This document shows positions 1-24,020 of a stretch of DNA of 64,000 nt, piece by piece (within the stretch, counting starts at the first letter, position 1; each line of letters begins with the position of its first letter). Location: the IMG/VR virus record IMGVR_UViG_3300031951_000040. One strand, written 5' to 3'. The notes under the pieces are model-generated. The model made no database searches. It was not told the origin of the DNA and worked only from the letters and a program-made list of their open reading frames with translations. The DNA comes from an uncultured virus (IMG/VR IMGVR_UViG_3300031951_000040) (lineage: Duplodnaviria > Heunggongvirae > Uroviricota > Caudoviricetes). Both the position numbers and the translations under genes were made by a program.

Positions 1-126
1 CTAAAACCGCCAATCTAATTTCCCTCATGCGCAATTGCTCGAAGGAGAAGTTGCTAAATGCTTTAGGTGTTGCTAAAACCGCCAATCTAATTTCCAACCA
101 TGCGCTGTTGCTCGAAGGAGAAGTTG
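1..126. repeat. Imperfect ~72-bp tandem duplication, each unit carrying a minus-strand copy of the TTWGWTTGGC motif
   Basis: ctaaaaccgccaatctaatttcc...ttgctcgaaggagaagttg begins at 1 and again at 73; GCCAATCTAA at 9-18 and 81-90. Confidence 0.85.
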
Positions 127-165
127 TTGGTGTTATCAAGTTGGCAAAATAGATATAAAAAAATG

Positions 166-197
166 TTGTTTATATTGAAACTTATATTATATTTGTA
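166..197 (+). promoter_or_regulatory. Bacteroidota sigma-70-type promoter; representative of more than 25 copies in 1-23 kb
   Basis: -7 box TATATTTG at 188-195; the same TTTGG...TAnnTTTG layout lies upstream of nearly every + gene (e.g. 641-672, 1318-1349, 1625-1656, 14112-14143, 16819-16850). Confidence 0.85.
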
Positions 198-224
198 TCG
201 TTAAACCAAACAAAAGAAACAATT

Positions 225-431
225 ATGAAAAAGTTATTTCCTTACATCGCAATCATCGGGTTCATTGTTTACTCAATGTGGGTATCATTAACTTGGGATA
301 TTCCCGTAGACAATCAAATGGGTATGTTCTTATTTTCTTGTATGGGTATTGGTATGTTCTTTATCATTTTGTTTGAGGACATCAAAAATTACATCAAGAG
401 TAAAAAGAAACCACAACCTCAAAGGTTCTAA
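225..431 (+). CDS. Small two-TM membrane protein
   Basis: ORF lies between a promoter and a terminator; two hydrophobic segments. Confidence 0.75.
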   Translation: MKKLFPYIAIIGFIVYSMWVSLTWDIPVDNQMGMFLFSCMGIGMFFIILFEDIKNYIKSKKKPQPQRF

Positions 432-450
432 AAATTCCAAAATGGTAATT

Positions 451-478
451 AACCCTCAACGAAAGTTGGGGGTTTTTT
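451..478 (+). terminator. Intrinsic terminator; representative of similar hairpins at 1129, 2083, 2658, 3025, 3862, 4877, 6363, 7455, 8088, 10250, 10964, 12262, 13328, 13965, 14921, 15818, 17479, 22954, 24041
   Basis: aaccctcaac-gaaa-gttgggggtt followed by a T-tract. Confidence 0.85.
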
Positions 479-516
479 ATTTACACGAGGTTCTGTGGTG
501 GATTTGAGCAGCGTAG

Positions 517-577
517 AAAATTGTTTGGCGGGGTATTACACATTGGTATTATCGTATTACGCTCGCCAACCAAAAAT
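517..577. repeat. Inverted-pair element, GTATKACA subtype
   Basis: TTGTTTGGCG 521-530 ... CGCCAACCAA 564-573, enclosing GTATTAC(A) at 533 and 554. Confidence 0.85.
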
Positions 578-701
578 CAAAATCCGTCTTCTGTCCCTCG
601 ACATCTTGTATCGTAAGTTGGCAAAAAAAATATAAATTTATTTGGAATATCCGTTTAATCATATTATATTCGTATTGTTAAACCAAATAAAAAGAACAAG
701 T

Positions 702-1106
702 ATGAACAATTACAAAGACATTGAAGAAATCAGAGATTTTATTCAAGGAATGACACACTCCGCAAAAGTGAGTACCGAAGAAATGTTGGGAACAAACGAT
801 AGTGTACCCAATGTAAAAATGTACCTTTTGAAAAAAGTAAACGAAGAAGGGGAAACCGAGTATGGTGTTGGTGGTGGACCAGTACCAAACGACCCAATCG
901 GTAGAATGGTGTACGACCGAGTTGTTCCACAAATCATTGAAAGGGATGGACACGAAATTTTGTGTAGTGTTGAAACAACCTTTGACAAGGGCGTTTTGAA
1001 TGTTGAGTTCCACAATTTTGTAACCGATGAAAAACATCAAGAGGTTTTTGATTTTTATAAACCTTACCAAGTTTCCGACCTTATGAAAAATCTTTGTTTA
1101 AATTGA
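702..1106 (+). CDS. Hypothetical protein
   Basis: ATG at 702 follows the promoter and A-rich leader; the ORF-track start at 642 overlaps the promoter. Confidence 0.75.
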   Translation: MNNYKDIEEIRDFIQGMTHSAKVSTEEMLGTNDSVPNVKMYLLKKVNEEGETEYGVGGGPVPNDPIGRMVYDRVVPQIIERDGHEILCSVETTFDKGVLNVEFHNFVTDEKHQEVFDFYKPYQVSDLMKNLCLN

Positions 1107-1216
1107 ATTTAGTTTGTTGGTTCAGACTAACCCTCATCAGTAATGGTGGGGGTTTTTTATTTGTTTCCCTTATTGATAAGGTGAACATTTCAGGACTTGA
1201 GTCAGGGCCCTGAAGG

Positions 1217-1279
1217 AAAATTGTTTGGCGCCGTATGACAAATAGTGAGTATCGTATTACACCTACGCCAACCAATTTT
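1217..1279. repeat. Inverted-pair element, GTATKACA subtype
   Basis: TTGTTTGGCG 1221-1230 ... CGCCAACCAA 1266-1275; GTATGACA at 1233, GTATTACA at 1254. Confidence 0.85.
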
Positions 1280-1374
1280 TGGATACGGACGACGGTTCTG
1301 AGAAAAATAAAAATAAATTTGGTATATAAGAAAAATAGTTTTATATTTGTATAGTTAAACCAATAGACAAAATC

Positions 1375-1590
1375 ATGAAAGTTATCTCATCTCGTATTAC
1401 GGAACAACCAAAGAGTTTGTTCGACCCGATGCCCCAAGTGTGGGTTACAATGGAAAATGGACAAGAAGAATTTTTGTTCGACTACTATCCCGATGAAATC
1501 AGTTTCACTCCCAACGAATTTGTGGGATTGACTATTGAGGAATGTAGACACCTCAAATTTGTCAAAGACAAGAAATACCTGACCTCCTGA
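1375..1590 (+). CDS. Hypothetical protein
   Basis: ORF directly after a promoter. Confidence 0.75.
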   Translation: MKVISSRITEQPKSLFDPMPQVWVTMENGQEEFLFDYYPDEISFTPNEFVGLTIEECRHLKFVKDKKYLTS

Positions 1591-1685
1591 CGGGAGATGT
1601 TGGAATTTGATTGGCAAAAAAAGATTTGGAATATAAAAGAAATAGTATTATATTTGTATCGTTAAACCAATAAAACAAAAAAGAA

Positions 1686-2060
1686 ATGTCAAGAGGAATT
1701 TTAATCGACGTAGAAAACAAAACAATTTCCGAAGTTGAAGTTGTTCGTGATGAAACTGGTAGTCAGTTACCAAGTATCTATGGACACTTAAAGTGTTCTA
1801 TTTTTGAGATTGTTAGTTACAACAACGAAAACGATGTGTATGTTGATGAAGAAGGTATAATGAGTGTTGATGAAAACACAAAGTTTTTCAAGTTGAAAAA
1901 TTACCGACAACCTCTATCGGGTAATGGGTTGATAATGGGTTACGATGATGAAACGGGTGAAAATGGTGATACCAAACTTTCACTTGAAGAAGTCAAAGAA
2001 CAAGTAACATTTATGTCCGCGTTTGACGTGGCGTTAAAAGAAAGGTTTGGTTCATATTAG
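1686..2060 (+). CDS. DUF3846-like protein
   Basis: VYVDEEG and PLSGNGLIMG motifs. Confidence 0.6.
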   Translation: MSRGILIDVENKTISEVEVVRDETGSQLPSIYGHLKCSIFEIVSYNNENDVYVDEEGIMSVDENTKFFKLKNYRQPLSGNGLIMGYDDETGENGDTKLSLEEVKEQVTFMSAFDVALKERFGSY

Positions 2061-2151
2061 GTTTGGTTTAGTTAGGTGGAAAGTCCTCGGCGAAAGTCGG
2101 GGATTTTTTTTGCTCGGATGTGTGCAGTGGAGCTGCACAGTTGCAGCTCGG

Positions 2152-2213
2152 AATTTTGGTTGGCGTTGTATGACACTATCATACATTGTATTACACCTAC
2201 GCCAAACAATTTT
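2152..2213. repeat. Inverted-pair element, GTATKACA subtype
   Basis: TTGGTTGGCG 2156-2165 ... CGCCAAACAA 2200-2209; GTATGACA at 2168, GTATTACA at 2188. Confidence 0.85.
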
Positions 2214-2349
2214 TCGGATTTGACGACAGGTGGTCATCTGTTTCGTGGTAGTTTGGCAAAATAGATAAAAAAAAATATACTCAAATGTTGTGTATATTAA
2301 AATTTGATTTATATTTGTATTGTTAAACCAATAAAACAAAAAAAACAAA

Positions 2350-2652
2350 ATGGAAAAGTACATTGATTTCTCTATCGACTACGATGGTAATTGTGAATGT
2401 GTTGATGATTTCCTCGTTAATAACGAAGAAGTAACTATTGACGATTCGGATGTTCAACCTCTAATTGAGAAGTTGGAACAACTTGAAGGGTTTTTTATTT
2501 CCGACCACCGAACCCAAGTCCGTATTTGGTGGAACGAAGATGGAACTATGGATGTCCGTTTTCGTTATTTCAATGAACCCGATTGGGGGGAATTTGATGA
2601 TTACGAACTATTGGGTATCCCACAAATTGAGTTTGAACCCGAAGTTTTTTAA
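2350..2652 (+). CDS. Acidic hypothetical protein
   Basis: ORF between a promoter and a terminator. Confidence 0.75.
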   Translation: MEKYIDFSIDYDGNCECVDDFLVNNEEVTIDDSDVQPLIEKLEQLEGFFISDHRTQVRIWWNEDGTMDVRFRYFNEPDWGEFDDYELLGIPQIEFEPEVF

Positions 2653-2805
2653 CAACGAACCCTCACCGAAAGGTGGGGGTTTTTTTATGACCTGAAGAAC
2701 TTGAGTCACGGTTCAGGGTGAAAATTGGTTGGCAAGAAAGATATAAAAAAATTTGGATTATACGAAAAAATGTTTTATCTTTGTGTTTCACCAAAACTAA
2801 TTAAA

Positions 2806-3018
2806 ATGACAAGACAAGAAGTTGTTGGTTTAATTTACCAACATATTCAAACCGAAAACGAAATGGGTTTACCACCGAATAGAAGTTGGGAAGGAATTTT
2901 TGAAGGTGATAATGATTGGGTAGATGAATGTATTAAGAGTGGATATACACTATTTCAATTACAGAATGAATTGTTCAACGAAGCGATTCAAATTTTTCGG
3001 GATAGTGAAGAAGAGTAA
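2806..3018 (+). CDS. Hypothetical protein
   Basis: ATG at 2806 after the promoter; terminator at 3025. Confidence 0.7.
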   Translation: MTRQEVVGLIYQHIQTENEMGLPPNRSWEGIFEGDNDWVDECIKSGYTLFQLQNELFNEAIQIFRDSEEE

Positions 3019-3085
3019 AGACAAGACCTCAACGAAAGTTGGGGTTTTTTTATGACCTGAAGTCCTGAGTCACGGTTCAGGGTGA

Positions 3086-3158
3086 AAATTGTTTGGCATC
3101 CACTTTACAGATTAGTAGGTTTTTACTTTACAGATTGTAAGAACGCCAACCAAAATTT
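3086..3158. repeat. Inverted-pair element with an ACTTTACAGATT direct-repeat core
   Basis: TTGTTTGGC ending 3097 ... GCCAACCAA from 3145; 12-mer repeated at 3102 and 3125. Confidence 0.8.
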
Positions 3159-3288
3159 TCCCGACGCAGCGGTTCTGAGATGTTACCGAATGGTAAGTTA
3201 CTATTTGGTTAGTTGGCAAGAAAAATAAAAATAAATTTGGTAGAATAAAAAACTCGTTATATCTTTGTATCATAAAATCGACAAAATA

Positions 3289-3837
3289 ATGAAAACACTT
3301 GTAATTCATCCAAAAGACAAATCGACACAATTTTTAGATATTGTGTACGAACCTATACCGAATAAGACAATTATCACGGGTGGGGTAACAAAAGAAGAAG
3401 TTAGAAAACTTATCGACGCCCACGACAGAGTAATAATGTGTGGACACGGAGCACCTATGGGATTGTTCTCGGTTGGACAATTTCCTGGTTCAAATGGTTT
3501 CATCATTGATGAAAGTATGGTGTACCTATTAAAAGAAAAAGACAATTCAATTTTTATTTGGTGTAACGCGGACAAATTCGTTAATCACTTTAAGTTGAAA
3601 GGTTTTTATTCGGGAATGTTTATTTCCGAAGTAGGGGAAGCGTACTATTGTGGTTTACCTGGTACCGAACAAGAAGTAGTTGATGAAAGTAACTATGGTT
3701 TTTGTGAACTTTTATCGGAGTGTATTAACGAACCACAAGATAGAATGTACGAAATCATTAAAAAGGAATATGGTAAGATTGCGGAAGAAAACCCAGTCGC
3801 ACTATACAACCACAACCGCCTGTACTTGTCGATTTAA
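3289..3837 (+). CDS. Hypothetical phage protein with a CGHG motif, alpha/beta pattern
   Basis: ATG at 3289 after the promoter; 182 aa. Confidence 0.75.
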   Translation: MKTLVIHPKDKSTQFLDIVYEPIPNKTIITGGVTKEEVRKLIDAHDRVIMCGHGAPMGLFSVGQFPGSNGFIIDESMVYLLKEKDNSIFIWCNADKFVNHFKLKGFYSGMFISEVGEAYYCGLPGTEQEVVDESNYGFCELLSECINEPQDRMYEIIKKEYGKIAEENPVALYNHNRLYLSI

Positions 3838-3930
3838 TTGGTTTAACTCGGTTGCGGTGGAAAAGGGTAGCAGAAATGTTACCCTTTTTTGTTGCGTTTT
3901 AGTTTCACCTCACAGCACGTGCTGTATCCT

Positions 3931-4030
3931 AAATTTGGTTGGCACTGTATGACACTCAATAAAGGCGTATTACACTATATGTTTTGTTTAATCTTTCGGT
4001 CAAAACATTAAACAACACGCCAAACAATTT
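3931..4030. repeat. Inverted-pair element with an internal insertion
   Basis: TTGGTTGGC ending 3943; GTATGACA 3947, GTATTACA 3967; extra atgttttg...caaaacat hairpin; GCCAAACAA from 4019. Confidence 0.8.
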
Positions 4031-4405: not shown

Positions 4406-4446
4406 AATTGTTATATATTTGTATAAACCAATAAATAATAACGACT

Positions 4447-4940: not shown

Positions 4941-5000
4941 ATTTTGTTTGGCGGATAACCTATTATATTTAAGTGTTTTATGTGGTCAGCCAACCAAAAT
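4941..5000. repeat. Inverted-pair element
   Basis: ATTTTGTTTGGC ending 4952 ... GCCAACCAAAAT from 4989. Confidence 0.8.
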
Positions 5001-6169: not shown

Positions 6170-6170
6170 T

Positions 6171-6430: not shown

Positions 6431-6469
6431 ATTTAGTTTGGCGGGTGTATGACAGATGCCAACCAATTT
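6431..6469. repeat. Short inverted-pair element with a single GTATGACA
   Basis: ATTTAGTTTGGC-gggtGTATGACAgat-GCCAACCAAT. Confidence 0.8.
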
Positions 6470-6573: not shown

Positions 6574-7428
6574 ATGTCACAAGAAAATCGCACACAGCAA
6601 GTTCTCAACAAAGTCGGCCTAAATTGGACCGTAAGAGAAGAAAGTATCACTACAGAAAGTGGTATCATTGTTCCTAAGAGTAAAGCAATCATCCGTGAGG
6701 ACACAAACACTGTTTTGTCTGTACATGGTGATGGTTACTTTCCTTATCAAAATCATCAGATGGTTGATTTACTAGACAAGGTATCTCAACAGGTTGGTTT
6801 ACCAATTCACAAAGGTGGTTACTTTGGTGGGGGTGAGAAAGTATACCTTCAATTGAAATCAAATGATTTGAAATTGGGCAATGACAGAGTTGAGGGTTTC
6901 ATCACTGGTGTGAATTCCTTCGATGGGTCAACTAGTTTGGCATTCGGTCCAAGTAATATTACAATCAGTTGTCAGAATTCATTCTTCGCAGCGTTCCGTA
7001 ACTTGAATGCGAAAATTCGTCACACCAAAAACATGGAGATGAGAATCGATGATATCTGTCGTGGTTTGGAGGGGGTACTCGTGGAAGAAAAAGAAATGTT
7101 CGAAGACATTAAGAAACTTTCTGAAACGAAGATGACCAAGAAACAAGAGGATTGGGTTACACGTACATTGTTCAATATCATGAAAGATGTTGATTTGAAT
7201 AGTGACAAAGATGTGTCGACCGTGACTCGTAATCGTCTTTCTCGTTTCTACGTAGACCTTAATGGTGAAGTAAAAGAGAAAGGTGATAACCTTTGGGGAT
7301 TGTTCAGTGGGGTTACTAAGTACACCACACATTCCTTAAGTAAAGGTGATAACTCTGAAAACAAGATGTTTGGAACCTATGGACAAAGGGAACGTCAAAT
7401 TTTCAAAGAATTGGTTGAGTTGGTTTAA
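6574..7428 (+). CDS. DUF932-family phage/plasmid protein
   Basis: GLNWTV, Y.PYQN, NSFDGSTS, ISCQN, IRHT, NLWGLFSGVTKYTTH motifs. Confidence 0.8.
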   Translation: MSQENRTQQVLNKVGLNWTVREESITTESGIIVPKSKAIIREDTNTVLSVHGDGYFPYQNHQMVDLLDKVSQQVGLPIHKGGYFGGGEKVYLQLKSNDLKLGNDRVEGFITGVNSFDGSTSLAFGPSNITISCQNSFFAAFRNLNAKIRHTKNMEMRIDDICRGLEGVLVEEKEMFEDIKKLSETKMTKKQEDWVTRTLFNIMKDVDLNSDKDVSTVTRNRLSRFYVDLNGEVKEKGDNLWGLFSGVTKYTTHSLSKGDNSENKMFGTYGQRERQIFKELVELV

Positions 7429-7519: not shown

Positions 7520-7583
7520 AAAATTGTTTGGCAAACTCTAAACCCAATAAAATCAATACTTTGGGTTCGAGCCAACCAAAATC
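7520..7583. repeat. Inverted-pair element, IHF-like core subtype
   Basis: TTGTTTGGC ending 7532 ... GCCAACCAA at 7571; AATCAATACTTTG 7551-7563 fits WATCAANNNNTTR. Confidence 0.8.
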
Positions 7584-8874: not shown

Positions 8875-9517
8875 TGAAGCAATCGCACTCTGGAAAGAGT
8901 TAGGTATTACAAGCGCAACTATGGAATTTAGTTGTGGTGGTGATAGTATGAATGATTATCACTTTAATTTTTACAATTCAGAAAACAAAGATGTTGAGAG
9001 TGGTGAACTTGATAGTTTCTTTGATGATGATGTTTTCCGTAGAGTAGAATTTTATGTGAACTCTGACGGACACTACATTGGTGAATTTGGAAGTGTTGAG
9101 ATTACACTTGATGAAGATGATGAGGAAAACCCCACTTTCTCGTATTACAAATCTGCACAGGCGGAATGGTCAGAGAGTTTTACAGAAGAAGTTGTTGTTG
9201 AACTCACAGAAAAAGAGGTTGAGTTTATTAGAACCAAAGTCCTTAATTTGGTTGGCAGTCAAGACGGAAGTTCAATTAACTACAAAGGTGATTGTATTCT
9301 CAATGATGAGGAAGAACAGATTTCTGATACATTATTGGAAAAGATTACTGATGTTGTTGAGAACCACGAATTTGAAAACGCAGACGGCGAACAAGAGGAT
9401 TGGTTTCAATTCAACACAGAAGAAGTGGATAGTGATGTATTACCTAAAATTGTAGATAACACATTATTCGTTTCACTAACAAGACAATTTTTGGTATTGA
9501 CTGAAAGTGATATGTAA
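8864..9517 (+). CDS. Acidic protein, DUF6878-like N-terminus
   Basis: FSCGGDS motif; overlaps the upstream gene. Confidence 0.55.
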   Translation: MQTNEAIALWKELGITSATMEFSCGGDSMNDYHFNFYNSENKDVESGELDSFFDDDVFRRVEFYVNSDGHYIGEFGSVEITLDEDDEENPTFSYYKSAQAEWSESFTEEVVVELTEKEVEFIRTKVLNLVGSQDGSSINYKGDCILNDEEEQISDTLLEKITDVVENHEFENADGEQEDWFQFNTEEVDSDVLPKIVDNTLFVSLTRQFLVLTESDM

Positions 9518-9537: not shown

Positions 9538-10227
9538 ATGAAAATCATAATTGAAAACACTCGTTTTGACTACAACATTGGTTGTCGTTTATTAAAAACA
9601 AAATATCGTAATACACCCTTTAATGGTTTGGAAGATATTTGGGAAGATATTGTTCCTATTACTTTCAAAGAAATTACAACCGAAATTCAAAACATTGAAC
9701 AGAGGCGTATCGCCGTAGGTTGTTTGGGTTTGGAAAACATTTACAAAGAAGTGAACCCCACACTTATTAAGTCCGAAACGATTTCAAAAGAAACATTTTG
9801 GGTTGGTGAGAATGGTGAACTCATTAAGAAAAACTTTGAGGACACCTACGAACTTTATGAAGTAAAAGGAAATGTTTGGGGTGAAGGTGCAGAATTTGGT
9901 TGGCGTAGACCAGATAATGTTCACTTTGTAAAGTGTAAGGACACCTCAACTGATAGGGAGTATTTTATTTGGGTGGACGCACAAAGTGTTTATCGTACTA
10001 ACAACAAAGACAAATGGTTGAGTAGTAGTGAGAACTTTGGTGAAAAGATTACCCCTATTCAAGCAATCGCGTGGACAATTCAAACAGACATTAAAGAAGG
10101 TGGAATTGAGAAAATTGTTCGGCAAGGTGATTGTGTTCTTATTAAGAAGAAAAAGAAGTGTGAAAGTGGTTCGGTTAGACACTTGACCGAAAAAGAATAC
10201 CGAAAACTATTGGTCGCAGAGAGTTAG
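9538..10227 (+). CDS. DUF6745-like protein
   Basis: NIEQRRIA, VKCKDTSTDREYFIWV, AIAWT, RQGD motifs. Confidence 0.55.
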   Translation: MKIIIENTRFDYNIGCRLLKTKYRNTPFNGLEDIWEDIVPITFKEITTEIQNIEQRRIAVGCLGLENIYKEVNPTLIKSETISKETFWVGENGELIKKNFEDTYELYEVKGNVWGEGAEFGWRRPDNVHFVKCKDTSTDREYFIWVDAQSVYRTNNKDKWLSSSENFGEKITPIQAIAWTIQTDIKEGGIEKIVRQGDCVLIKKKKKCESGSVRHLTEKEYRKLLVAES

Positions 10228-10316: not shown

Positions 10317-10378
10317 GATTTTGTTTGGCATTCTGTAAACCCAATAAAATCAATGGTTTGGGTTCGCCAACCAAAATC
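10317..10378. repeat. Inverted-pair element, IHF-like core subtype
   Basis: TTGTTTGGC 10321-10329 ... GCCAACCAA at 10366; AATCAATGGTTTG 10348-10360. Confidence 0.8.
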
Positions 10379-10960: not shown

Positions 10961-11102
10961 GAGAAACCCCGAAAGGGGTTTTTTTATTTCTCAGGACTCT
11001 GAGTCACGGTTCAGGACGGAAATTAGATTGGCAAGAAAAATAAAAAAATATTTGGATTATATTAATTACTGATTTATATTTGTATTATAAAACGACAAGA
11101 CA

Positions 11103-12549: not shown

Positions 12550-13305
12550 ATGAGTACAAAAAATGTTCAAGTAAAGTTCACCCAAAATTTGGGTATGTTC
12601 AAACTTCACAATGTAAATCGTGAGGTAGACTCTCCACGCGTTAAGCGTATTACAGACTCGATGAAGAAGGACGGATTAAAACTCGTTCCAATCATTGTAA
12701 ACTCCCAGTATGTGGTTGTAGACGGACAACACCGACTAACCGCAGCAAAAGAAGCGGGTAAAGGTATCTACTTTATTGTAGACAACTCAATCCCCAACAC
12801 CACGAAAGGTATCTTTGAAGCCGCACGTAAGTTCAACCAGAACATGAAAGAGTGGGGTAAGAAAGATTACATTCATGGTTTTTCCGAACAAGGAAACAAA
12901 TCTTACAAAACTTTGGAAGATTTTTCAAAAGAGTTTCCGATGTTTTCTTTGACCGAAAGAATTATGTTACTACAAAATTCTGGTACTCGTCATTGTGACA
13001 AACAAGATTTTGCGGATGGTAAGTTTGTTGTTGGTAATATGGAAACCGCCAAAGAATGGGCGAATAACCTACTCCAACTGAAACCTTACTTTGAAAAGGG
13101 TTACAACAAATCGGTATTTGTTCGTACTATTCTTACCATTATGGAAAAGAAACCCGATTTTAAGTTTGAAGAATTTTTACATAAAGTAAAACTTCGTCCA
13201 AGTTCAATCTATATGTGTGGTGATAAAAAATCATACGCGGAAATGATTGAAGACATTTACAACTACAAGCGTCGTAATGAGGACAAGTTGAACCTTCGTT
13301 TCTAA
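12550..13305 (+). CDS. ParB/Srx N-terminal domain protein
   Basis: NREV...PIIV...VVDGQHRLTA motif. Confidence 0.8.
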   Translation: MSTKNVQVKFTQNLGMFKLHNVNREVDSPRVKRITDSMKKDGLKLVPIIVNSQYVVVDGQHRLTAAKEAGKGIYFIVDNSIPNTTKGIFEAARKFNQNMKEWGKKDYIHGFSEQGNKSYKTLEDFSKEFPMFSLTERIMLLQNSGTRHCDKQDFADGKFVVGNMETAKEWANNLLQLKPYFEKGYNKSVFVRTILTIMEKKPDFKFEEFLHKVKLRPSSIYMCGDKKSYAEMIEDIYNYKRRNEDKLNLRF

Positions 13306-13560: not shown

Positions 13561-13932
13561 ATGATAAAAAAACCAAGAAAGACTACGGCTAATTCTCTGA
13601 AGAAGTCTTTGCACGAAATTCGTGAATGCCTTAATGAGAGTTTACCAAACTTTGAGAAAAAGGAAATGGTGGGAATTAAATTTTCTCGTGTTGGTACTCG
13701 TTATCACATTGAAAATGCACCAGTTCCTCCTACCGATAAGATTGGTGTACAGCTTGAGCGTTCTTTCAATGATTTTATGCGTAAGCTGAAAGTAACTTAT
13801 GGTGGAATGAAACTTGAAGGTTCGATGGTGTTAGGGACCAAAGACGATTTGTTTTTGGTTGGCTACAACAACTATGAACGTAAAGGTAAAAACCTCACCA
13901 AAAAGGGACATTCAATAGAAGGGGTTCTTTAG
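13561..13932 (+). CDS. Basic hypothetical protein
   Basis: ATG at 13561 after a promoter; terminator at 13965. Confidence 0.65.
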   Translation: MIKKPRKTTANSLKKSLHEIRECLNESLPNFEKKEMVGIKFSRVGTRYHIENAPVPPTDKIGVQLERSFNDFMRKLKVTYGGMKLEGSMVLGTKDDLFLVGYNNYERKGKNLTKKGHSIEGVL

Positions 13933-14035: not shown

Positions 14036-14061
14036 AATTAGTTTGGCGCCCGCCAAACAAT
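14036..14061. repeat. Minimal inverted-pair element with almost no core
   Basis: aattagtttggcg-cc-cgccaaacaat. Confidence 0.8.
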
Positions 14062-14163
14062 ATCGCCCTGGGAAGAACAGGTCCCTCCTGAAGAAAAAAA
14101 ATAAAAATAAATTTGGAATATAAAAGAATTCGTTTTATATTTGTATTGTTAAACCAATATTAT

Positions 14164-14983: not shown

Positions 14984-15046
14984 AATTTTGTTTGGCATTC
15001 TGTAATCCTAATAAAATCAACACTTTAAGTTGTGCCAACCAAAATC
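14984..15046. repeat. Inverted-pair element, IHF-like core subtype
   Basis: TTTGTTTGGC ending 14996 ... GCCAACCAA at 15034; AATCAACACTTTA 15015-15027. Confidence 0.8.
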
Positions 15047-15906: not shown

Positions 15907-16296
15907 ATGAGTAAAAGTATTAAAGTAAGGTTCAATCTCGGTAGAGGTAAGAACTACATGAAGTGGAAAGTACAACACCCTGATGGTAGTGTATTGTATT
16001 ACAGTCCAACAGATAATCAGTTGGTCATGACAGGTTGCACATTTAAGAACCACAGGAAAACAGCACAGAAGATTTTCGATGGTGGTAATAAAACAGTATG
16101 TGCGTGGATACTTTGTAAGGACATCAAGATTTACACAGGTCAACCATACAAGGATGAAAGTCGTAGGGTTCGATACAATCCACGAGTTCAACCCAACTGG
16201 TTATTCGATGGTCACATCATGGACAATGATGGAGTACCACAATTGCACACCATCGATTACGGAGTGTACATCACGACAGGTGAAGGTGAAATTTAG
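15907..16296 (+). CDS. Hypothetical phage protein
   Basis: KTVCAW and VRYNP motifs; ATG after a promoter. Confidence 0.7.
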   Translation: MSKSIKVRFNLGRGKNYMKWKVQHPDGSVLYYSPTDNQLVMTGCTFKNHRKTAQKIFDGGNKTVCAWILCKDIKIYTGQPYKDESRRVRYNPRVQPNWLFDGHIMDNDGVPQLHTIDYGVYITTGEGEI

Positions 16297-16317
16297 TTTG
16301 GCCTAAAATAAAACAAC

Positions 16318-18306: not shown

Positions 18307-18852
18307 ATGGGATTAGACATGTATCTCAAGAAGAAAACCTATGTGAAAAATTGGTCACATATGGAACCCGAACAACTTCACAAGGTGACAGTTAAGAAGG
18401 GTGGGAAAGTAGTTAAGGAAATTCAACCCGACAGAATTTCATCCATCGAGGAACAGGTGGCGTATTGGAGAAAGGACAACCACATCCACGCATGGTTTGT
18501 AAACAATGTACAGGACGGTGAGGACGATTGTGGTGAGTATTATGTAGACCGCGAAAAACTCAAAGAGTTGGTGGATACCTGTGGGAAAGTTAGAGCAACC
18601 CTGAAAAATTCTCCGACGAAGAAGGTTCAGGTGAAAGTTGGTTGGCAAGGTGGTAAGGAATTGTATGAGGACATCGATGTCTACACCGACACCGAACTTG
18701 CGGAAGAACTACTACCAACCCAAGCAGGTTTCTTTTTCGGGGGAACTGAATATGATGAGTGGTATCTAAAAGGTTTAGAAGATACCATCAAACAAATCAC
18801 TCCCTTATTAGAGGAAAAGGAAGGAGATTTCTACTACCAATCATCCTGGTAA
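18307..18852 (+). CDS. Conserved phage protein (MGLDMY N-terminus)
   Basis: AYWRK.NHIH.WF, LLPTQAGFFFG...YD..Y, YYQSSW motifs. Confidence 0.8.
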   Translation: MGLDMYLKKKTYVKNWSHMEPEQLHKVTVKKGGKVVKEIQPDRISSIEEQVAYWRKDNHIHAWFVNNVQDGEDDCGEYYVDREKLKELVDTCGKVRATLKNSPTKKVQVKVGWQGGKELYEDIDVYTDTELAEELLPTQAGFFFGGTEYDEWYLKGLEDTIKQITPLLEEKEGDFYYQSSW

Positions 18853-19822: not shown

Positions 19823-20302
19823 ATGGGACGAGTAAATAAAACAATCGAGGGTGTCTTCATTGACATCGTAGGGTCAAAGAGTGAACTGAGTTCATATGAC
19901 CAATTCATCAACCACGGTGATGGTAAGAAATATTCTAAGGAGCTTAAAGAGCTCACTGGTTTATATAAGAACTTAATCACTGAGAGTAAATTAACATTCG
20001 AAAAACTAGCATCACTCGAGGAGATTATAATCCAAATGAGAATTCGTGAGGACCTCAGTGATATCAAGTTGACTCAAGTTCGTGAGTACATCTACGCAAG
20101 GACTCCTTTCTACCGTAAGGATAAGAAGTCAAAAGATGTCCGTGTTATTGTCGACAAGATTGAGTTTCACCCTGAGGAGGATTTGGAGATTTTGTCTGGC
20201 GACAAGGAGTTCATGACCAAAGCCAAGATGAAGTTAGCTCAGGCTATGGACCTCGAGATTGAGGAAAACATCCGAGTATTCAAATCAACATTTAAAAAGT
20301 AG
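19823..20302 (+). CDS. Hypothetical protein
   Basis: Operonic spacing; 159 aa. Confidence 0.7.
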   Translation: MGRVNKTIEGVFIDIVGSKSELSSYDQFINHGDGKKYSKELKELTGLYKNLITESKLTFEKLASLEEIIIQMRIREDLSDIKLTQVREYIYARTPFYRKDKKSKDVRVIVDKIEFHPEEDLEILSGDKEFMTKAKMKLAQAMDLEIEENIRVFKSTFKK

Positions 20303-21615: not shown

Positions 21616-21619
21616 TATT

Positions 21620-22081
21620 ATGTTCAATACACAGAAACCTCAAGAACCGATTCACATATTCACCCCATCTCAGTGGTTGAATATTGGTTGGCTGGCCATG
21701 GTACCAGCAACTTACTTCGTACACCCATATGCATGTGCATTGGCGGTAGTCATCTATATCTACAAATATTTCGAAGTAGATTGTTGGAGGTATGAATTCT
21801 ATGATGACTGTGTAATTGAACGAAAAGGGGTCTTCAGTGTGACTCGAGAATCTGTGAACTATTTCAGGATTAAATCTGTAATGGTCGACGAACCATTTTG
21901 GATGAGATTACTTGGACTGTCTGTTGTTCGAGTTATTACTTCAGAGCAATTTAAACAGCAACTAATATTTCAAGCCGTACCACACGGTGAAGGTATTCAA
22001 GCGTTTTTACAGCACAACGCAAGAGTGGAGAGACAAAATATGGGAATTAGGGATTTTGATGTATTCAATACTCACCTGTAG
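21620..22081 (+). CDS. Bacterial PH-domain (bPH_2/YdbS-like) membrane protein
   Basis: Two TM segments then RYE...ERKGVFS...RIKSV.V.EPF.MRLLGL. Confidence 0.7.
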   Translation: MFNTQKPQEPIHIFTPSQWLNIGWLAMVPATYFVHPYACALAVVIYIYKYFEVDCWRYEFYDDCVIERKGVFSVTRESVNYFRIKSVMVDEPFWMRLLGLSVVRVITSEQFKQQLIFQAVPHGEGIQAFLQHNARVERQNMGIRDFDVFNTHL

Positions 22082-22095
22082 CAATATTTAAAGTC

Positions 22096-22254
22096 ATGAT
22101 AGTAGTAGAACCACGGATTCAGGAACAGTTCATGAGGATAGCAATGGCTAGACTTAATAAGAAATATTGTTTTAAACCTCAAAGGTTAGCAATGGCGGCC
22201 AAGATGTTTTCACAATATTTGCAACGTTTGGAAGAAAGGGGGAAGAGTAAATGA
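22096..22254 (+). CDS. Small basic protein (52 aa, not in ORF track)
   Basis: MIVVEPRIQEQFMRIAMARLNKKYCFKPQRLAMAAKMF...; ATGA overlap with the next gene. Confidence 0.55.
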   Translation: MIVVEPRIQEQFMRIAMARLNKKYCFKPQRLAMAAKMFSQYLQRLEERGKSK

Positions 22255-22571
22255 AACTCTTCATCAGGGACAAGGTATACTTCACGGACCCTACCACAGG
22301 TGAAATAATAGAAGACACCATTACCGACGTTAATGACAACGTAGTGATGGGAAAGAAATTCAACTTGACTGATTTATATTGGAAGGGTGAGTTAAACGTA
22401 TATAGGTTAGAGTGTCACATATGTGGATTCAGTATACCAGCACCTCTATCGCAATTTCAGGTAGATGGAATAAAAGGTAAGCAGCAATTATTACCATCCA
22501 CATGTGGTGTATGTTTAGAAGAGTCACGGTACCCTGATAACCCTGAGGAGGGAATCATACTGTGGATTTAG
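22251..22571 (+). CDS. Hypothetical protein with two CxxC motifs
   Basis: CHIC and CGVC. Confidence 0.6.
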   Translation: MKLFIRDKVYFTDPTTGEIIEDTITDVNDNVVMGKKFNLTDLYWKGELNVYRLECHICGFSIPAPLSQFQVDGIKGKQQLLPSTCGVCLEESRYPDNPEEGIILWI

Positions 22572-22660
22572 TTTGGCATTAGTTCTTTGAAAGATTTTTT
22601 TATAGGATTTGGTTTTTAGGATTTTCTTGTGTATATTTTATATATCAAAATCAATATATT

Positions 22661-22930
22661 ATGGCAACAAAGAAGTCCACAACTAAAAAACCCGCCAGCA
22701 AACCAGCGGCGAAACCAGCTCCAGCCCCCAAAAAGGGTGGGAAGAAAGCAGTAGCAGCTCCGGCTATGAAAACAACCGTAAGTACTTACGTACCTGTTTC
22801 ACACCACATCTACTATGATGGTTTCTCTTACCGTGTACGTGCTAGCGTTAACGGAACCCGTTACTCTCAGAACTTCTCCTCCAAGAAGAAAGCTTTCGAG
22901 TTCCGTAAGAGTATCTTGAGTAATATGTAA
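22661..22930 (+). CDS. Small basic DNA-binding protein: K/A/P-rich tail plus AP2/integrase-arm-like beta domain
   Basis: MATKKSTTKKPASKPAAKPAPAPKKGGKK, then HIYYDGFSYRVRASVNGTRYSQNFSSKKKAFEFR. Confidence 0.6.
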   Translation: MATKKSTTKKPASKPAAKPAPAPKKGGKKAVAAPAMKTTVSTYVPVSHHIYYDGFSYRVRASVNGTRYSQNFSSKKKAFEFRKSILSNM

Positions 22931-23019
22931 TAGACGACTCAAGTCTCTTAACCAAATCCTGTGATTAACGTCACGGGATTTTTTTTTTAATGAGAATCCT
23001 GACGACGGGACCTGAGATG

Positions 23020-23200
23020 GTCAATTTAGTTTGGCGGAAAGGTTGTTTAGACAATTGATGTTGTAACAATAAATCCACCGATTTAGTTTGGCGGAATCAG
23101 AATCCTCAGAATCGTCCGACGGTACCGATTTTGTTTGGCACAAACTAACTAACACTTGTTAGTTCAGGGACCTGAGGAGGTCGATTTAGTTTGGCGGGGG
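23020..23200 (+). repeat. Cluster of four co-oriented ATTT(A/T)GTTTGGC motifs
   Basis: TTGGC at 23031, 23088, 23135 and 23191. Confidence 0.9.
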
Positions 23201-23204
23201 AATG

Positions 23205-23220
23205 GTATTTATATGTAAAG
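23205..23220 (+). promoter_or_regulatory. Putative late-type promoter (RTATTTAT class)
   Basis: GTATTTATATGTAAAG is identical to the reverse complement of 51445-51460, upstream of another gene. Confidence 0.6.
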
Positions 23221-23228
23221 TAAATGAG

Positions 23229-24020
23229 ATGATTAAACTAACAGAAACTTTAGAAGGTGATGATGTCCAAAAGTTTCACGACGCTTTACCACAAATAGGT
23301 GACTCACTTAAAGGACTGACCGATGGGACCATTACAATAAAATATGTTGTAGCTGAAGACCCAACCCAAGGAACAATAGATGGTGTCCCTTTTATAAGTG
23401 AATGTCTATTGAAACTATTTGTTGATGTTAACAGGGTTTATCCTGAGATGATTAATGACATCTACATTTTGGTTGGCAGAAAAATTCAAGAGATTGGGTT
23501 CGGTGAATTTCCGTTCAAGTTAAGTATAAGGTCACTTCACCTTATTAACGGACCTTTAATTATTGATTTATTAGAAGAATCGTTTGACAGAAATTATACC
23601 AATCACCTCAGGTATGATAATCCAACAATACAGTACATTTTGTCTGGCCAATATTCCCTTGTATTACCTCAAGATGTATTACCTAAGTTTTTTGACCAAA
23701 TGGATGAGTGGATAAAAATTTTAATAAAGAGAGCGACGGTGTATTACACCGTATATAAAAAAGGAAAGATAGATGACCATGAGTATGAACTCGTAGACAA
23801 CCCAGTTATTAGAGTTGTGGTACGCGGGAAAAAAGATATAAAAAATGAAAAAGATTTAATTCCGTTCATTGATTCAAAATTTAAAACCATAGATGGTATC
23901 GAAAAAGGTAGTCCCGATTTCCCCTATAACTTACAAGATAATATTATTGATAAGTTAGAAAAAAAGTTCAGGGAGAAACACAACGTAAGAATTTTTATTG
24001 ACGACACGAGACGTGTATGA
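23229..24020 (+). CDS. Hypothetical protein, possibly virion-associated
   Basis: ATG at 23229 (MIKLTETLE) after the RTATTTAT motif. Confidence 0.7.
   Translation: MIKLTETLEGDDVQKFHDALPQIGDSLKGLTDGTITIKYVVAEDPTQGTIDGVPFISECLLKLFVDVNRVYPEMINDIYILVGRKIQEIGFGEFPFKLSIRSLHLINGPLIIDLLEESFDRNYTNHLRYDNPTIQYILSGQYSLVLPQDVLPKFFDQMDEWIKILIKRATVYYTVYKKGKIDDHEYELVDNPVIRVVVRGKKDIKNEKDLIPFIDSKFKTIDGIEKGSPDFPYNLQDNIIDKLEKKFREKHNVRIFIDDTRRV

What the first reader, a model, noticed from the sequence alone, without database searches (positions are those of the whole stretch)
1..23648. A strand-polarised 10-bp motif (TTWGWTTGGC) paves the 24-kb early region, including coding sequence, then stops
Seen: roughly 50 + strand copies by eye, usually 300-1100 bp apart. 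Many lie ~15-25 bp upstream of a promoter -33 box. Others are inside ORFs in the same orientation (6933, 9247, 9895, 11267, 13854, 18638, 19778, 21684, 23468; variants TTTGTCTGGC at 20191 and 23639). Copies tend to have a purine/GC-rich 5' flank (ctgaggagatg, gacgacagg, cctga...tcagg) and an A-rich 3' flank. Four copies cluster at 23031-23195, and I found no full match in the following 40 kb. Inference: in-ORF copies argue against a simple promoter element. The pattern suits a directional DNA-level signal marking one genome domain, such as binding sites for a protein that coats or protects first-injected DNA, a translocation/ejection cue, or polar recombination sites.
Basis: partly seen in the sequence, partly recalled or inferred. 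Interest (0 to 1): 0.85.

Follow-up and report, generated by a model that had tools for sequence, protein, structure and literature searches.

The report
Lineage-specific polar word paving phage early block
A 25-kb block of small early genes in a giant T4-like phage of Bacteroidota is studded, on the coding strand, with a short DNA word that is kept even inside genes and that related phages replace with their own word, so an unknown phage-specific reader probably organises this block.

Summary
TTWGWTTGGC occurs 27 times in the window against 0.63 expected. In the looser form GDTTGGC it occurs 49 times on + and 16 times on - in the block, and 7 times in the other 90 kb. In a 288-kb record of the same phage, 63 of 71 matches lie in this 25 kb.

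The phage is a T4-like jumbo phage. The block is its hyperplastic early region. Each junction reads terminator, about 45 nt of GC-rich DNA, the word (often with an inverted partner), then the word again in 10-bp phase before a Bacteroidota-type promoter. Single-gene gains and losses between relatives break at these modules. This matches the PeSL cassettes of T4-type phages.

Three results go beyond PeSLs:
- Sense copies deep inside genes exceed synonymous-codon shuffles, 8 against about 3.
- These copies are far better conserved than their flanks, 5/189 against 391/2052 mismatches.
- Related phages carry a different word in the same architecture.

My best guess is a phage-encoded DNA-binding factor acting directionally on transcription. 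The first-injected-DNA reading is not supported.

The parts
1..23648 (+). Window part of the word-bearing block of about 50 small + strand genes. The block begins 1.5 kb before the window, at genome 105.
   Evidence: GDTTGGC occurs 49 times on + and 16 on - in genome 1-25.3 kb, against 3 and 4 in the other 90 kb. GC skew flips at about 24000. 63 of 71 TDGDTTGGC matches in the 288-kb record lie here.
9..90 (-). Two minus-strand copies (9-18, 81-90) inside a 72-bp tandem repeat of 3 units. The repeat starts before the window.
519..575 (.). Inverted pair: ATTGTTTGGC, 35-nt loop carrying GTATTAC three times in loose form, then GCCAACCAAAA.
   Evidence: A terminator T-run lies 44-48 nt upstream.
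1219..1277 (.). Inverted pair with a 37-nt loop (GTATGAC and GTATTAC).
2154..2211 (.). Inverted pair with swapped arm variants (GGTTGGC on the left, GCCAAAC on the right) and a 36-nt loop.
3087..3155 (.). Inverted pair with a 47-nt loop. The loop is 41/47 identical, in the same orientation, in relative L111.
3933..4029 (.). Inverted pair with swapped arm variants and a 75-nt loop.
4942..4999 (.). Inverted pair with a 36-nt loop. The arms are identical in three lineages, and the loop is unrelated in each.
6432..6468 (.). Inverted pair with a 15-nt loop (GTATGAC).
7522..7581 (.). Inverted pair with a 38-nt loop. It is a paralogue of the pairs at 10319 and 14986.
10319..10376 (.). Inverted pair with a 36-nt loop.
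14037..14062 (.). Inverted pair with a 4-nt loop. This is the only pair with a perfect stem.
14986..15044 (.). Inverted pair with a 37-nt loop. The loop is inverted in relative L063 (31/37 identical when reverse-complemented, 21/37 direct).
11028..11082 (+). Example of the promoter-proximal class: TTGGC, A-rich tract, -33 TTTGG, 20 nt, -7 TATATTTG. Here TTGGC starts 47 nt before the TA of the -7 box.
   Evidence: One search gives 20 promoters in phased classes. At 46-48 nt, TTGGC starts at 141, 2729, 3213, 5396, 7791, 8114, 10477, 11028, 12364, 16796, 17553, 17941 and 20614. At 36-38 nt it starts at 1611, 4377, 5742, 11866 and 15843. At 57-58 nt it starts at 2253 and 15124.
23026..23195 (+). 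Four tandem + copies spaced 57, 47 and 56 nt apart. They lie after a T-run and directly before the last gene of the block, with no -33/-7 promoter between.
6935..6941 (+). In-ORF sense copy in the DUF932 gene.
   Evidence: It is kept in 4 relatives that use GTTTGGC, down to 77% local identity. It is absent at the same codons in L037 and in 6 loci of the ACTGGG, ACCGGG and ACTGGA lineages.
9250..9256 (+). In-ORF sense copy (AATTTGGTTGGC).
9898..9904 (+). In-ORF sense copy (AATTTGGTTGGC).
13857..13863 (+). In-ORF sense copy. The last base varies in some relatives (GGTTGGA).
18640..18646 (+). In-ORF sense copy, kept in 5 relatives at 65-90% local identity.
21686..21692 (+). In-ORF sense copy.
23471..23477 (+). 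In-ORF sense copy in the last gene. A variant, GTCTGGC, lies at 23642-23648.
20194..20200 (+). In-ORF variant GTCTGGC. Relatives read GTTTGGC or GCTTGGC at the same place.
16289..16302 (+). Example of a copy overlapping a stop codon at a gene-gene junction with no promoter (ATTTAGTTTGGC, where TAG is the stop).
   Evidence: Copies at 5394, 16296, 16794, 17939 and 22571 overlap stops. Copies at 4375, 11270 and 19781 lie within 60 nt of a stop.
451..482 (+). Example of the intrinsic terminators (GC hairpin plus T-run) that precede each inverted pair by about 45 nt.
   Evidence: One search finds 33 terminator-like sites against 11.1 in shuffles; the distance from T-run end to left arm core is 41-51 nt in 11 of 13 pairs.
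12550..13305 (+). ParB-like protein gene inside the block, a candidate reader. Not shown to bind.
   Evidence: phrog_12305, E 6e-22. Pfam GmrSD_N scores below its cut-off. It is more diverged than its neighbours in relatives: 48% against 77% for GP88 in L244.
23202..24020 (+). Last gene of the block (272 aa, no family), preceded by the four tandem copies.
   Evidence: No homologue was found in four other-lineage records.

Best explanation
The word is the conserved core of the junction modules in the hyperplastic early-gene block of a T4-like jumbo phage of Bacteroidota. A full junction runs in this order: intrinsic terminator, about 45 nt of GC-rich spacer, the word (often with an inverted partner around a free-to-vary loop), a second GC-rich spacer, the word again on a fixed helical face 37, 47 or 57 nt before the -7 box, then a host sigma-A type -33/-7 promoter and the next small gene.

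I read the word as a DNA site for a phage-encoded, lineage-specific protein other than the sigma factor. I think this protein works directionally with transcription. Sense-oriented single sites let sense RNA polymerase pass, sit next to and probably help the early promoters, and stop traffic from the opposite direction. The inverted partner, found only behind terminators and at the left edge, stops read-through. Together they insulate each cassette and the block as a whole. Because the modules are repeated, they also serve as crossover points where cassettes are gained and lost.

Shown: the anatomy, the confinement to the block, the phasing, selection on in-ORF copies, word switching between lineages, and the cassette breakpoints.

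For: Real and confined:
- 27 matches against 0.63 expected.
- 49 + and 16 - in the block against 3 and 4 in the other 90 kb.
- 63 of 71 matches in a 288-kb, 92%-complete record lie in this 25 kb.
- Outside the block the word is at chance, 33 against 33-37.

Tied to transcription units:
- Of 49 + copies, 33 are intergenic, 5 overlap stop codons, 3 lie within 60 nt of a stop and 8 are deep in ORFs.
- 20 promoters carry TTGGC at 36-38 nt (5), 46-48 nt (13) or 57-58 nt (2) from the -7 box, with none in between.
- All 13 inverted pairs follow a T-run. The distance is 41-51 nt in 11 of 13, and a similar distance holds in other lineages: 40-52 nt in 9 of 9 for L037, and 39-47 nt in 9 of 12 for L249.

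Functional beyond promoters:
- Deep in-ORF sense copies number 8 against 2.8-3.0 in synonymous shuffles. None of 1000 shuffles or 300 shuffles reached 8. Antisense copies number 0.
- Their cores show 5/189 mismatches to relatives against 391/2052 in the flanks.
- + copies are evenly spaced, with CV 0.62 against 0.97 and a largest gap of 1141 nt against a random mean of 2145 nt.

Phage-specific reader:
- Relatives at 57-68% identity of a shared protein keep the architecture but use TTTACTGGG, TTTACCGGGAT, TTACTGGA, ATCCGGTCAAC or TGCTTGGCA.
- Each lineage's own word is enriched in its ORFs. Foreign words were not, in the four cross-combinations tested.
- In a 324-kb, 97%-complete relative, TTACTGGA occurs 45 times in the 20-kb block and 3 times outside it.

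Arms are sites rather than a selected stem: most pairs carry a mismatch at the variable arm position (T in the left arm, G in the right arm's word), with no covariation.

Edge orientation fits insulation: minus copies at the left edge, four plus copies at the right edge facing convergent genes.

Cassette indels break at the modules.
Against: - No reader was identified. Pfam and PHROG scans found no HTH regulator, NusG-like factor, recombinase or nuclease that fits. The scans covered the ORFs of 150 aa or more outside the G000 span, most ORFs of 90 aa or more inside it, and the larger block ORFs.
- Polar roadblock proteins are not an established phage mechanism. The polarity of blocking is my inference from where copies are tolerated.
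- The promoter-proximal copy is not universal. In L037 that position holds a different repeat, TTTAACA-N4-TTTAACA.
- The phased distances could partly reflect common descent of paralogous promoters.
- The inverted pairs can fold (-8.7 to -17.8 kcal/mol as RNA), so an RNA reading is not excluded.
- No transcript start or end data could be obtained. Only contigs of RNA runs were available.
- How some 50 copies change word together between lineages is unexplained.
Confidence: 0.4

Rival explanations
1. Plain PeSL-type cassettes with no dedicated reader. The word is just the best-conserved stretch of repeated terminator-promoter modules (part of a U-tract, an upstream promoter element or a -33-like TTTGG). 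Recombination between the copies keeps it uniform, and lineages have drifted apart.
For: - The phage is T4-like.
- The modules combine terminators, an AT-rich tract and host-type promoters.
- Single-gene indels break at the modules, as in PMC2839356 and PMC4122927 (passages and abstract read).
- A few copies follow a GC hairpin directly and could serve as a U-tract.
- The word shares TTTGG with the -33 box.
Against: - In-ORF copies are in excess, sense-only, and conserved far above their coding flanks.
- The word is sharply conserved while the flanks and loops are not.
- Different lineages have unrelated cores in the same places.
- The DUF932 in-ORF copy is kept only in lineages that use that word.
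Confidence: 0.12
2. The word is a promoter element for a phage-specific transcription mode. It would be a functional analogue of T4 MotA boxes or a single-element promoter for modified host RNA polymerase, giving early genes a second, middle-time promoter.
For: - Sense orientation, copies inside upstream ORFs, roughly one copy per 0.5 kb, and restriction to the early block recall T4 middle promoters. That comparison is recalled knowledge, not tested here.
- The T-run lies about 45 nt upstream, where an AT-rich upstream element would sit.
- The base after GGC is a purine in 38 of 41 copies.
- In 4 promoters a TAAATTTG box lies 14 nt after the word.
- Lineage-specific words resemble promoter-polymerase co-evolution.
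Against: - There is no conserved second element at a fixed distance in the set of 41 copies or after in-ORF copies.
- Inverted partners would make convergent promoters 4-75 nt apart.
- The phage sigma's regions 2.4 and 4.2 are invariant in three lineages with three different words.
- No MotA, MotCF or AsiA was found at E up to 1.
- No RNA polymerase beta-like gene was found.
- The search for a single-subunit polymerase was empty, but its control was silent too.
Confidence: 0.15
3. The word acts in RNA. It would be a sense-strand signal in early and read-through transcripts for a phage RNA-binding protein or endoribonuclease (processing, decay or antitermination). The inverted partner would only be there to pair with it.
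For: - ORF copies are sense-only in all seven loci tested with their own word. Five have no antisense copy. L244 and L246 have 1 and 2, near the shuffle expectation.
- Some copies lie at gene-gene junctions without promoters.
- The inverted pairs fold at -8.7 to -17.8 kcal/mol.
Against: - The paired copies lie about 45 nt beyond intrinsic terminators and upstream of the next promoter, so terminated mRNAs lack them. The ParB-like and GP88 genes are examples.
- The stem mismatch is kept, with no compensatory change.
- The 10-bp phasing to promoters has no RNA rationale.
- Rfam finds nothing.
Confidence: 0.13
4. One reading: a directional DNA-level cue unrelated to transcription. Candidates are a coat or protection signal for first-entering DNA, an ejection or translocation cue, or a Chi/KOPS-like polar signal.
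For: - Polarity and confinement to one domain.
- Even spacing with a largest gap of 1.1 kb.
- In-ORF copies fill the long gaps (P = 0.03) and are under selection.
Against: - 41 of 49 + copies sit at or near gene ends, and 20 are phased to promoters.
- Minus copies sit behind terminators.
- The block is internal in the 288-kb record, and word-free genes adjoin it on the left.
- The virion genes are T4-like. For T4 this implies permuted ends, which is established knowledge not tested here.
- The word is lineage-specific among close relatives, which suits a phage reader more than a host nuclease.
Confidence: 0.1
5. The inverted pairs are miniature mobile elements (REP/BIME- or MITE-like). A phage-encoded transposase or HUH enzyme would recognise the arms and move them.
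For: - Arms are conserved while loops vary from 4 to 75 nt.
- Arms are lineage-specific.
- Loops are replaced wholesale in 2 of the 8 loops compared with the about 90% relatives, and inverted in 1.
Against: - No tyrosine or serine recombinase was found, and no transposase family appeared in the Pfam scans.
- Two thirds of copies are singles.
- In-ORF singles are conserved.
- The position relative to terminators is fixed.
Confidence: 0.05

Closest known systems
PeSL (promoter-early stem-loop) regulatory cassettes of T4-type phages (Arbiol et al. 2010, PMC2839356; Comeau et al. 2014, PMC4122927)
   Same: - The host is a T4-like phage, and the setting is a hyperplastic block of small orphan genes.
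- The repeated modules have a host-sigma early promoter, an AT-rich upstream tract and a stem-loop.
- Single-gene indels between close relatives break in the modules.
- No dedicated recombinase was found.
- Those authors also speculated that a protein might read the conserved stem (passage read).
   Different: - Here a canonical terminator and the word-bearing inverted pair are separate elements at a fixed distance of about 45 nt.
- The conserved part is a 10-12 nt polar word rather than a GGGG...CCCC stem.
- The word also occurs as singles inside ORFs under selection.
- The word differs between related lineages.
- Mini-circles were not tested.
MotA boxes of T4 middle promoters (recalled knowledge)
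   Same: A short sense-oriented word, read by a phage protein, spread through the early region and also inside upstream genes.
   Different: - No MotA or AsiA homologues were found.
- No -7 or -10 element lies at a fixed distance for most copies.
- Inverted partners exist.
KorB/ParB-family global regulators with dispersed operators (RK2 OB sites). This was also named by the earlier scan note e1-5374650.
   Same: Many copies of one operator lie across a gene block, some beside promoters and some far away. A ParB-like gene lies inside the block.
   Different: - Operators of that family are fixed palindromes. Here the half-site spacing runs from 4 to 75 nt, and most sites are polar singles.
- The ParB-like protein matches only an N-terminal ParB/GmrSD-type domain, below the Pfam cut-off.
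- No binding has been shown.
Integron attC sites
   Same: Unidirectional arrays of small gene cassettes are separated by imperfect inverted repeats with conserved arms and variable centres.
   Different: - No integrase was found.
- The arm layout is the reverse of the attC core sites (recalled).
- The cassettes carry their own promoters and terminators.
Polar chromosomal words (Chi, KOPS, Ter)
   Same: Strand-polar short words that occur in genes and whose orientation matters.
   Different: Those are genome-wide and host-read. This word is limited to 9% of the genome, clusters at gene junctions, and changes between sister phages.

Membership tests
PeSL cassettes of T4-type phages | Located in a hyperplastic region of a T4-like phage genome | tested here: met
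   The 288-kb record holds a T4-like portal, Gp23 capsid protein, prohead protease, gp25, gp32, T4 baseplate protein and T4-type terminase. The block holds about 50 small ORFs, mostly without a known family.
PeSL cassettes of T4-type phages | Composite of a host-sigma early promoter, an AT-rich upstream tract and a stem-loop | tested here: met
   -33 TTTG and -7 TAnnTTTG promoters with an A-rich tract. Hairpin terminators. Inverted pairs. The layout differs in having two separate stem-loops.
PeSL cassettes of T4-type phages | Insertions, deletions and replacements between close relatives are bounded by the modules | tested here: met
   Three single-gene deletions in L063/L095/L111 have overlapping alignment ends at genome 6984, 9702/9707 and 12616. 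The same deletion appears as a joint at 10476->11028 in an RNA-library contig.
PeSL cassettes of T4-type phages | Circular cassette intermediates (mini-circles) | not testable with these tools
   This needs inverse PCR or raw reads of infected cells.
T4 MotA-dependent middle promoters | MotA and AsiA encoded by the phage | tested here: not met
   PF09114, PF09158 and PF09010 gave no match at E up to 1 in the 288-kb record. The record is 92% complete.
T4 MotA-dependent middle promoters | The box lies at a fixed distance upstream of a sigma -10 (here -7) element | tested here: not met
   No informative column lies downstream of the word in 41 copies. Only 4 copies have a TAnnTTTG box 14 nt downstream, and no in-ORF copy has one.
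Integron attC / cassette array | IntI-type tyrosine recombinase | tested here: not met
   PF00589 gave no match, and its control rang in 14 of 14 genomes.
Integron attC / cassette array | Promoterless cassettes | tested here: not met
   25 + strand -33/-7 promoters lie in the block.
ParB/KorB operator systems | Palindromic operator with fixed half-site spacing | tested here: not met
   The spacers are 4, 15, 25, 35-38 (seven pairs), 47 and 75 nt. 33 + copies have no inverted partner.
ParB/KorB operator systems | ParB-family DNA-binding protein encoded nearby | tested here: inconclusive
   window:12550-13305 matches phrog_12305 'ParB-like partition protein' at E 6e-22. Pfam gives only GmrSD_N at 22.6 bits, below the 33.2-bit cut-off.
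Chi/KOPS-type polar words | Genome-wide distribution | tested here: not met
   63 of 71 matches lie in 25 of 288 kb. The rest of the genome is at chance.
REP/BIME with RAYT | Cognate Y1/HUH transposase | tested here: not met
   No such family appeared in Pfam scans of 18, 110 and 92 ORFs. ORFs under 90 aa, and ORFs of 90-150 aa outside the G000 span, were not scanned.

The most novel reading that the evidence does not exclude
A family of T4-like jumbo phages of Bacteroidota runs a 'domain word' system. A still-unknown phage protein reads a polar 10-12 nt DNA word that is kept at least once per 1.1 kb through the accessory early block, even at synonymous sites inside genes, and that co-evolves with its reader so that sister lineages use unrelated words. 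The word gives direction to a tracking process, either polar insulation of transcription or another strand-aware machine. A second, lineage-constant word (GTATKACA) is concentrated in the block and removed from the rest of the genome. Together they would form a self-addressing code for a swappable gene block, a kind of system not described for phages.
Probability: 0.3. Interest if true: 0.85.

Novelty: new variant of a known kind. Interest (0 to 1): 0.72.

Why it matters
Hyperplastic early blocks are where large phages keep host-takeover and anti-defence genes. This block holds DUF932, SprT-like, ParB-like, DUF3846 and DUF6915 genes. How such blocks are regulated, insulated and reshuffled is poorly understood outside E. 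coli T4.

This case offers a clean handle. The word's presence, orientation, spacing and in-gene conservation can all be tested, and natural word-swapped relatives give built-in specificity controls. It could also supply orthogonal site-protein pairs for engineering in a phylum with few genetic tools.

The case also extends PeSL-type modular shuffling from enterobacterial and Vibrio T4-likes to uncultured freshwater and wastewater jumbo phages.

Tried and rejected
- **Named relatives.** Megablast of 1-24000 against phage records gave no match. The nearest named relatives by helicase protein are Bacteroides phages DAC16-23 at 36%.
- **RNA families and tRNAs.** Rfam at E up to 1 gave three chance-level hits. 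No tRNAs were found.
- **Host clue.** A scan of bacterial genomes for the inverted pair gave 121 scattered single hits in all phyla, so it gave no host clue.
- **RNA-library contigs** from four runs showed no starts or ends, and their coverage was not used. Only two cassette-deletion joints were taken from them, each resting on one contig.
- **Sigma factor as reader:** rejected, because the recognition regions are invariant across three words.
- **Last gene of the block (P0001) as reader.** It has no family and no homologue in four other-lineage records. It was left open rather than pursued.
- **Enzyme and factor searches.** MotA/AsiA, tyrosine and serine recombinases and RNA polymerase beta were not found. 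The single-subunit polymerase search was empty but its control was silent, so it shows nothing.
- **Phase variation of loops.** All near-identical contigs carry the same loops. Assemblies would hide minor forms.
- **A retracted inversion.** A second loop inversion, noted in my notebook for the pair at 3087-3155, was an artefact of reading a near-palindrome on both strands.
- **T7 promoter resemblance.** One loop's resemblance to a T7 promoter rests on recall only and was dropped.
- **Sigma-54 reading** (TGGCA as a -24 box): no -12 TTGC follows. This is from reading the sequences.
- **The word as the terminator U-tract.** This is true for only a few copies. Most follow a separate terminator.
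- **Depletion outside the block:** not seen.
- **Earlier notes.** The earlier-notes look-up by place found nothing.
- **Supplements.** Supplementary files of the PeSL papers were not seen. They may hold motif tables that bear on the comparison.

Full report
**1. Is it there?**

Yes. The stated pattern TTWGWTTGGC has 27 exact matches in the window. 25 are on the + strand between 1606 and 23195, and 2 are on the - strand at 9-18 and 81-90. Dinucleotide-preserving shuffles give 0.63, with a largest value of 3. There is no match in the last 40 kb.

The window is bases 1589-65588 of a single 114,927-base contig. In the whole contig there are 26 + and 3 - matches, all before base 24,774. Aligning 41 copies gives the longer consensus A-T-T-T-W-G-T-T-T-G-G-C-R.

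The variable positions also accept G. GDTTGGC occurs 49 times on + and 16 times on - in the first 25.3 kb, against 3 and 4 in the other 90 kb. GTTTGGC is the most enriched 7-mer of the block, 30 copies against 0.6 expected from the rest of the genome.

Six of them are the G variant TT(T)GGTTGGC, which does not fit the stated consensus.

**2. What genome is this?**

Contigs essentially identical to the window (100% over the aligned stretches) occur in several IMG/VR records of 81 to 288 kb. The 288,260-base record is rated 92% complete. It encodes:
- a T4-like portal, Gp23-type capsid protein, prohead protease, gp25, gp32, T4 baseplate protein, T4-type terminase and T4 RNA ligase;
- a family B DNA polymerase;
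- a protein with the Bacteroidota type IX secretion sorting domain.

The promoters in the block have the Bacteroidota form, -33 TTTG and -7 TAnnTTTG (consensus as in PMC9723704, passages read). So this is a T4-like jumbo phage of a Bacteroidota host.

In that record, 63 of 71 TDGDTTGGC matches lie between 210,728 and 235,694. Directly left of the block are 7.9 kb with no copy and with genes on the other strand. To the right, the genes are convergent. Outside the block the word is at chance level: 33 observed, against 33 to 37 expected from Markov models.

**3. Anatomy**

Reading the intergenic regions shows a recurring junction, in this order:
- stop codon;
- intrinsic terminator, a GC hairpin plus T-run (33 terminator-like sites against 11.1 in shuffles);
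- about 45 nt of GC-rich, non-conserved DNA;
- the word;
- a variable stretch;
- an inverted copy of the word;
- another GC-rich stretch of 40 to 100 nt;
- often the word again, then an A-rich tract, the -33 box, the -7 box and the next gene.

Thirteen inverted pairs exist, 11 of them in the window. Their inner spacers are 4, 15, 25, 35-38 (seven pairs), 47 and 75 nt. Of the 16 minus copies, 13 are these partners, 2 lie in a 72-bp tandem repeat beside one pair, and 1 stands alone at the left edge.

Every pair follows a T-run. The distance from T-run end to the left core is 41-51 nt in 11 of 13 pairs.

Single + copies beside promoters sit at discrete distances. TTGGC starts 46-48 nt (13 promoters), 36-38 nt (5) or 57-58 nt (2) before the TA of the -7 box, with nothing in between. 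These are steps of one helical turn.

Of the 49 + copies:
- 33 are intergenic;
- 5 overlap a stop codon (the W positions make TAG or TGA);
- 3 lie within 60 nt of a stop;
- 8 are deep inside ORFs.

Four tandem copies spaced 57, 47 and 56 nt apart precede the last gene, with no host-type promoter between.

**4. Are the in-gene copies meaningful?**

Yes. Shuffling synonymous codons within each ORF gives 2.8 to 3.0 deep copies of GDTTGGC. Eight are observed, and none of 1000 or of 300 shuffles reaches 8. Antisense copies number 0.

The copies carry the extended consensus (for example AATTTGGTTGGC) and are read in different frames (and reading of the sequence). They are therefore not a shared peptide.

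In orthologous genes of relatives that use the same word, the 7-nt cores show 5 mismatches in 189 aligned positions. The 40 nt on each side show 391 in 2052 (Fisher P = 5e-11). The comparisons are not phylogenetically independent.

Plus copies are more evenly spaced than chance. There are 53 sites with a mean gap of 474 nt. The coefficient of variation is 0.62 against 0.97. The largest gap is 1141 nt, against a random mean of 2145 nt (P = 0.0004). The in-ORF copies fall in what would otherwise be gaps of up to 2.2 kb (P = 0.03).

**5. Relatives**

A protein of the block (GP88 family, window 14164-14934) retrieved 31 loci from viral contigs, at 57 to 100% identity. Lineages at 78-98% keep GTTTGGC. 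More distant ones keep the architecture: T-run, about 40 nt, word, loop, inverted word, promoter. Their distances from T-run to word are 40-52 nt in 9 of 9 pairs for L037 and 39-47 nt in 9 of 12 for L249. But they use other words:
- TTGYTTGGCA (L037, L257);
- TTTACTGGG (L249 to L254);
- TTTACCGGGAT (L260);
- TTACTGGA (L266);
- AACTGGAAA (L261);
- ATCCGGTCAAC (L255).

In each lineage tested, its own word is over-represented in the sense strand of ORFs: 8 against 1.0, 7 against 1.0, 3 against 0.46, and 5 against 1.75. In the four cross-combinations tested, the foreign word was absent from ORFs in the sense strand.

The in-ORF copy in the DUF932 gene is kept only in lineages that use GTTTGGC. Two other lineages carry their own words about 20 nt upstream in the same gene, at the same codons, differing by a synonymous base (ACT GGG against ACC GGG).

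In a 324-kb, 97%-complete relative, TTACTGGA occurs 45 times in the 20-kb block (35 on one strand and 10 on the other) and 3 times elsewhere.

**6. Evolution of the junctions**

Between the genome and relatives about 90% identical (L063, L095, L111), three single genes are missing. The alignment ends overlap by 50-70 nt and fall at TTGGC-plus-promoter modules, at genome 6984, 9702/9707 and 12616. One of these deletions also appears as a joint, 10476 to 11028 with 7 shared letters, in one contig of an RNA library. Another joint, 6528 to 8113, ends at a word copy.

In orthologous inverted pairs the arms are invariant while the loops vary. Among the eight loops compared with the about 90% relatives, two are replaced by unrelated sequence. 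One is inverted: 31/37 identical when reverse-complemented, 21/37 direct.

The arms do not co-vary to keep pairing. Most pairs carry a mismatch at the variable arm position (T in the left arm, G in the right arm's word), and L037 shows a mismatch there in most pairs. The arms therefore look like two instances of a site rather than a selected stem. They can still fold, at -8.7 to -17.8 kcal/mol as RNA.

**7. Who reads it?**

Unknown.
- The phage's full-length sigma factor is 69-72% identical in two lineages with other words.
- No MotA, MotCF or AsiA was found.
- No tyrosine or serine recombinase was found.
- No beta-like polymerase subunit was found.
- Pfam and PHROG scans of the ORFs turned up no obvious regulator.
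- A ParB-like gene lies in the block and evolves faster than its neighbours. That is a lead only.
- The gene behind the four tandem copies has no family and no homologue in four other-lineage records.

**8. Reading**

The junction modules are the Bacteroidota counterpart of the PeSL cassettes of T4-type phages. These are strong host-type early promoters with AT-rich upstream tracts and stem-loops, in hyperplastic regions, acting as crossover points for gene shuffling (PMC2839356, passages read; PMC4122927, abstract read). That part is well supported.

The polar word goes beyond the PeSL description in three ways: selection inside genes, even spacing, and word switching between lineages. All three call for a sequence-specific, phage-lineage-specific reader whose action depends on orientation relative to transcription.

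The layout suggests polar insulation:
- Sense-oriented singles sit wherever sense transcription must pass.
- Inverted partners sit only behind terminators and at the left edge.
- Four sense copies stand at the right edge, facing convergent genes.

Under this reading, promoter-side copies in helical phase would also assist the early promoters. This mechanism is inferred, not shown. A phage-specific promoter, an RNA signal and a transcription-independent DNA cue remain open, with the objections listed under the rivals.

**9. A second word**

GTATKAC(A) sits in many loops, typically 3-4 nt after the left arm. It is shared by lineages with different first words. It is enriched in the block, 18 sense copies of the 8-mer. 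It is depleted elsewhere: 3 observed against about 29 expected in 262 kb. In the 324-kb relative the figures are 17 against 29. Here its enrichment and depletion were re-measured on this genome.

Noticed in passing
window 533-6447 (loops of inverted pairs) and ORFs up to 23741; whole 288-kb record G001: A second word, GTATKAC(A), lies in 9 loop positions and in many ORFs, mostly on the sense strand. The block holds 18 sense copies of GTATKACA. Outside it there are 3 in 262 kb against about 29 expected, a tenfold depletion. The word is shared by lineages that differ in the first word.
   Followed up: partly
genome 1460-1700 = window -128 to 112: A 72-bp unit is repeated three times in tandem, each unit carrying a minus-strand copy of the word. 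Several public contigs of this phage begin exactly here, probably because the assembly breaks at the repeat.
   Followed up: no
L001:1-100 (genome 1-100, left edge of the block): An unusually G-rich 100-nt stretch marks the left edge of the block, just before a lone minus-strand copy at genome 105. The contig G000 starts at this point, while the 288-kb record runs on.
   Followed up: no
window 14986-15044 against L063:10343-10405: The 37-nt loop between conserved arms is inverted in a relative about 90% identical (31/37 identical when reverse-complemented). This points to recombination or template switching between the arms.
   Followed up: yes
G001:107949-124367 (L272/L273): A single open frame of 5,472 codons with internally repetitive sequence, of a size rare among phage genes. 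It lies partly beyond the end of contig G000.
   Followed up: no
L281:6967-8196 (G001 about 272,967-274,196): A 409-aa ORF matches the catalytic domain of the RuBisCO large chain (Pfam E 1e-31). It sits among sugar-nucleotide and methyltransferase genes. A glutamine synthetase-like gene lies at L275:16255-17379.
   Followed up: no
window 6574-7428, 14164-14934, 16318-16794; L279:4145-4519; L278:16331-16735: The block carries DUF932, GP88, SprT-like, DUF3846 and DUF6915 genes. As I recall, such families are typical of the leading or anti-restriction regions of conjugative elements. This fits an anti-defence or host-takeover role for the block.
   Followed up: no
L037 (reverse complement) about 390-420, 1190-1215, 2350-2375 and others: In the about 70% relative, the stretch just upstream of the -33 box holds a direct repeat, CTTTAACA-N4-TTTAACAAGA, in place of the TTGGC copy. 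The promoter-side element therefore differs between lineages.
   Followed up: no
window 5716-5746, 11840-11872; genome 545-590: Three junctions hold a six-codon mini-ORF (MVNRRF, MVNSEY, MVQVEI). Each starts at GAGATG, just after the upstream gene's TGA, and ends at the TGA inside the word. Probably paralogy, not examined.
   Followed up: no
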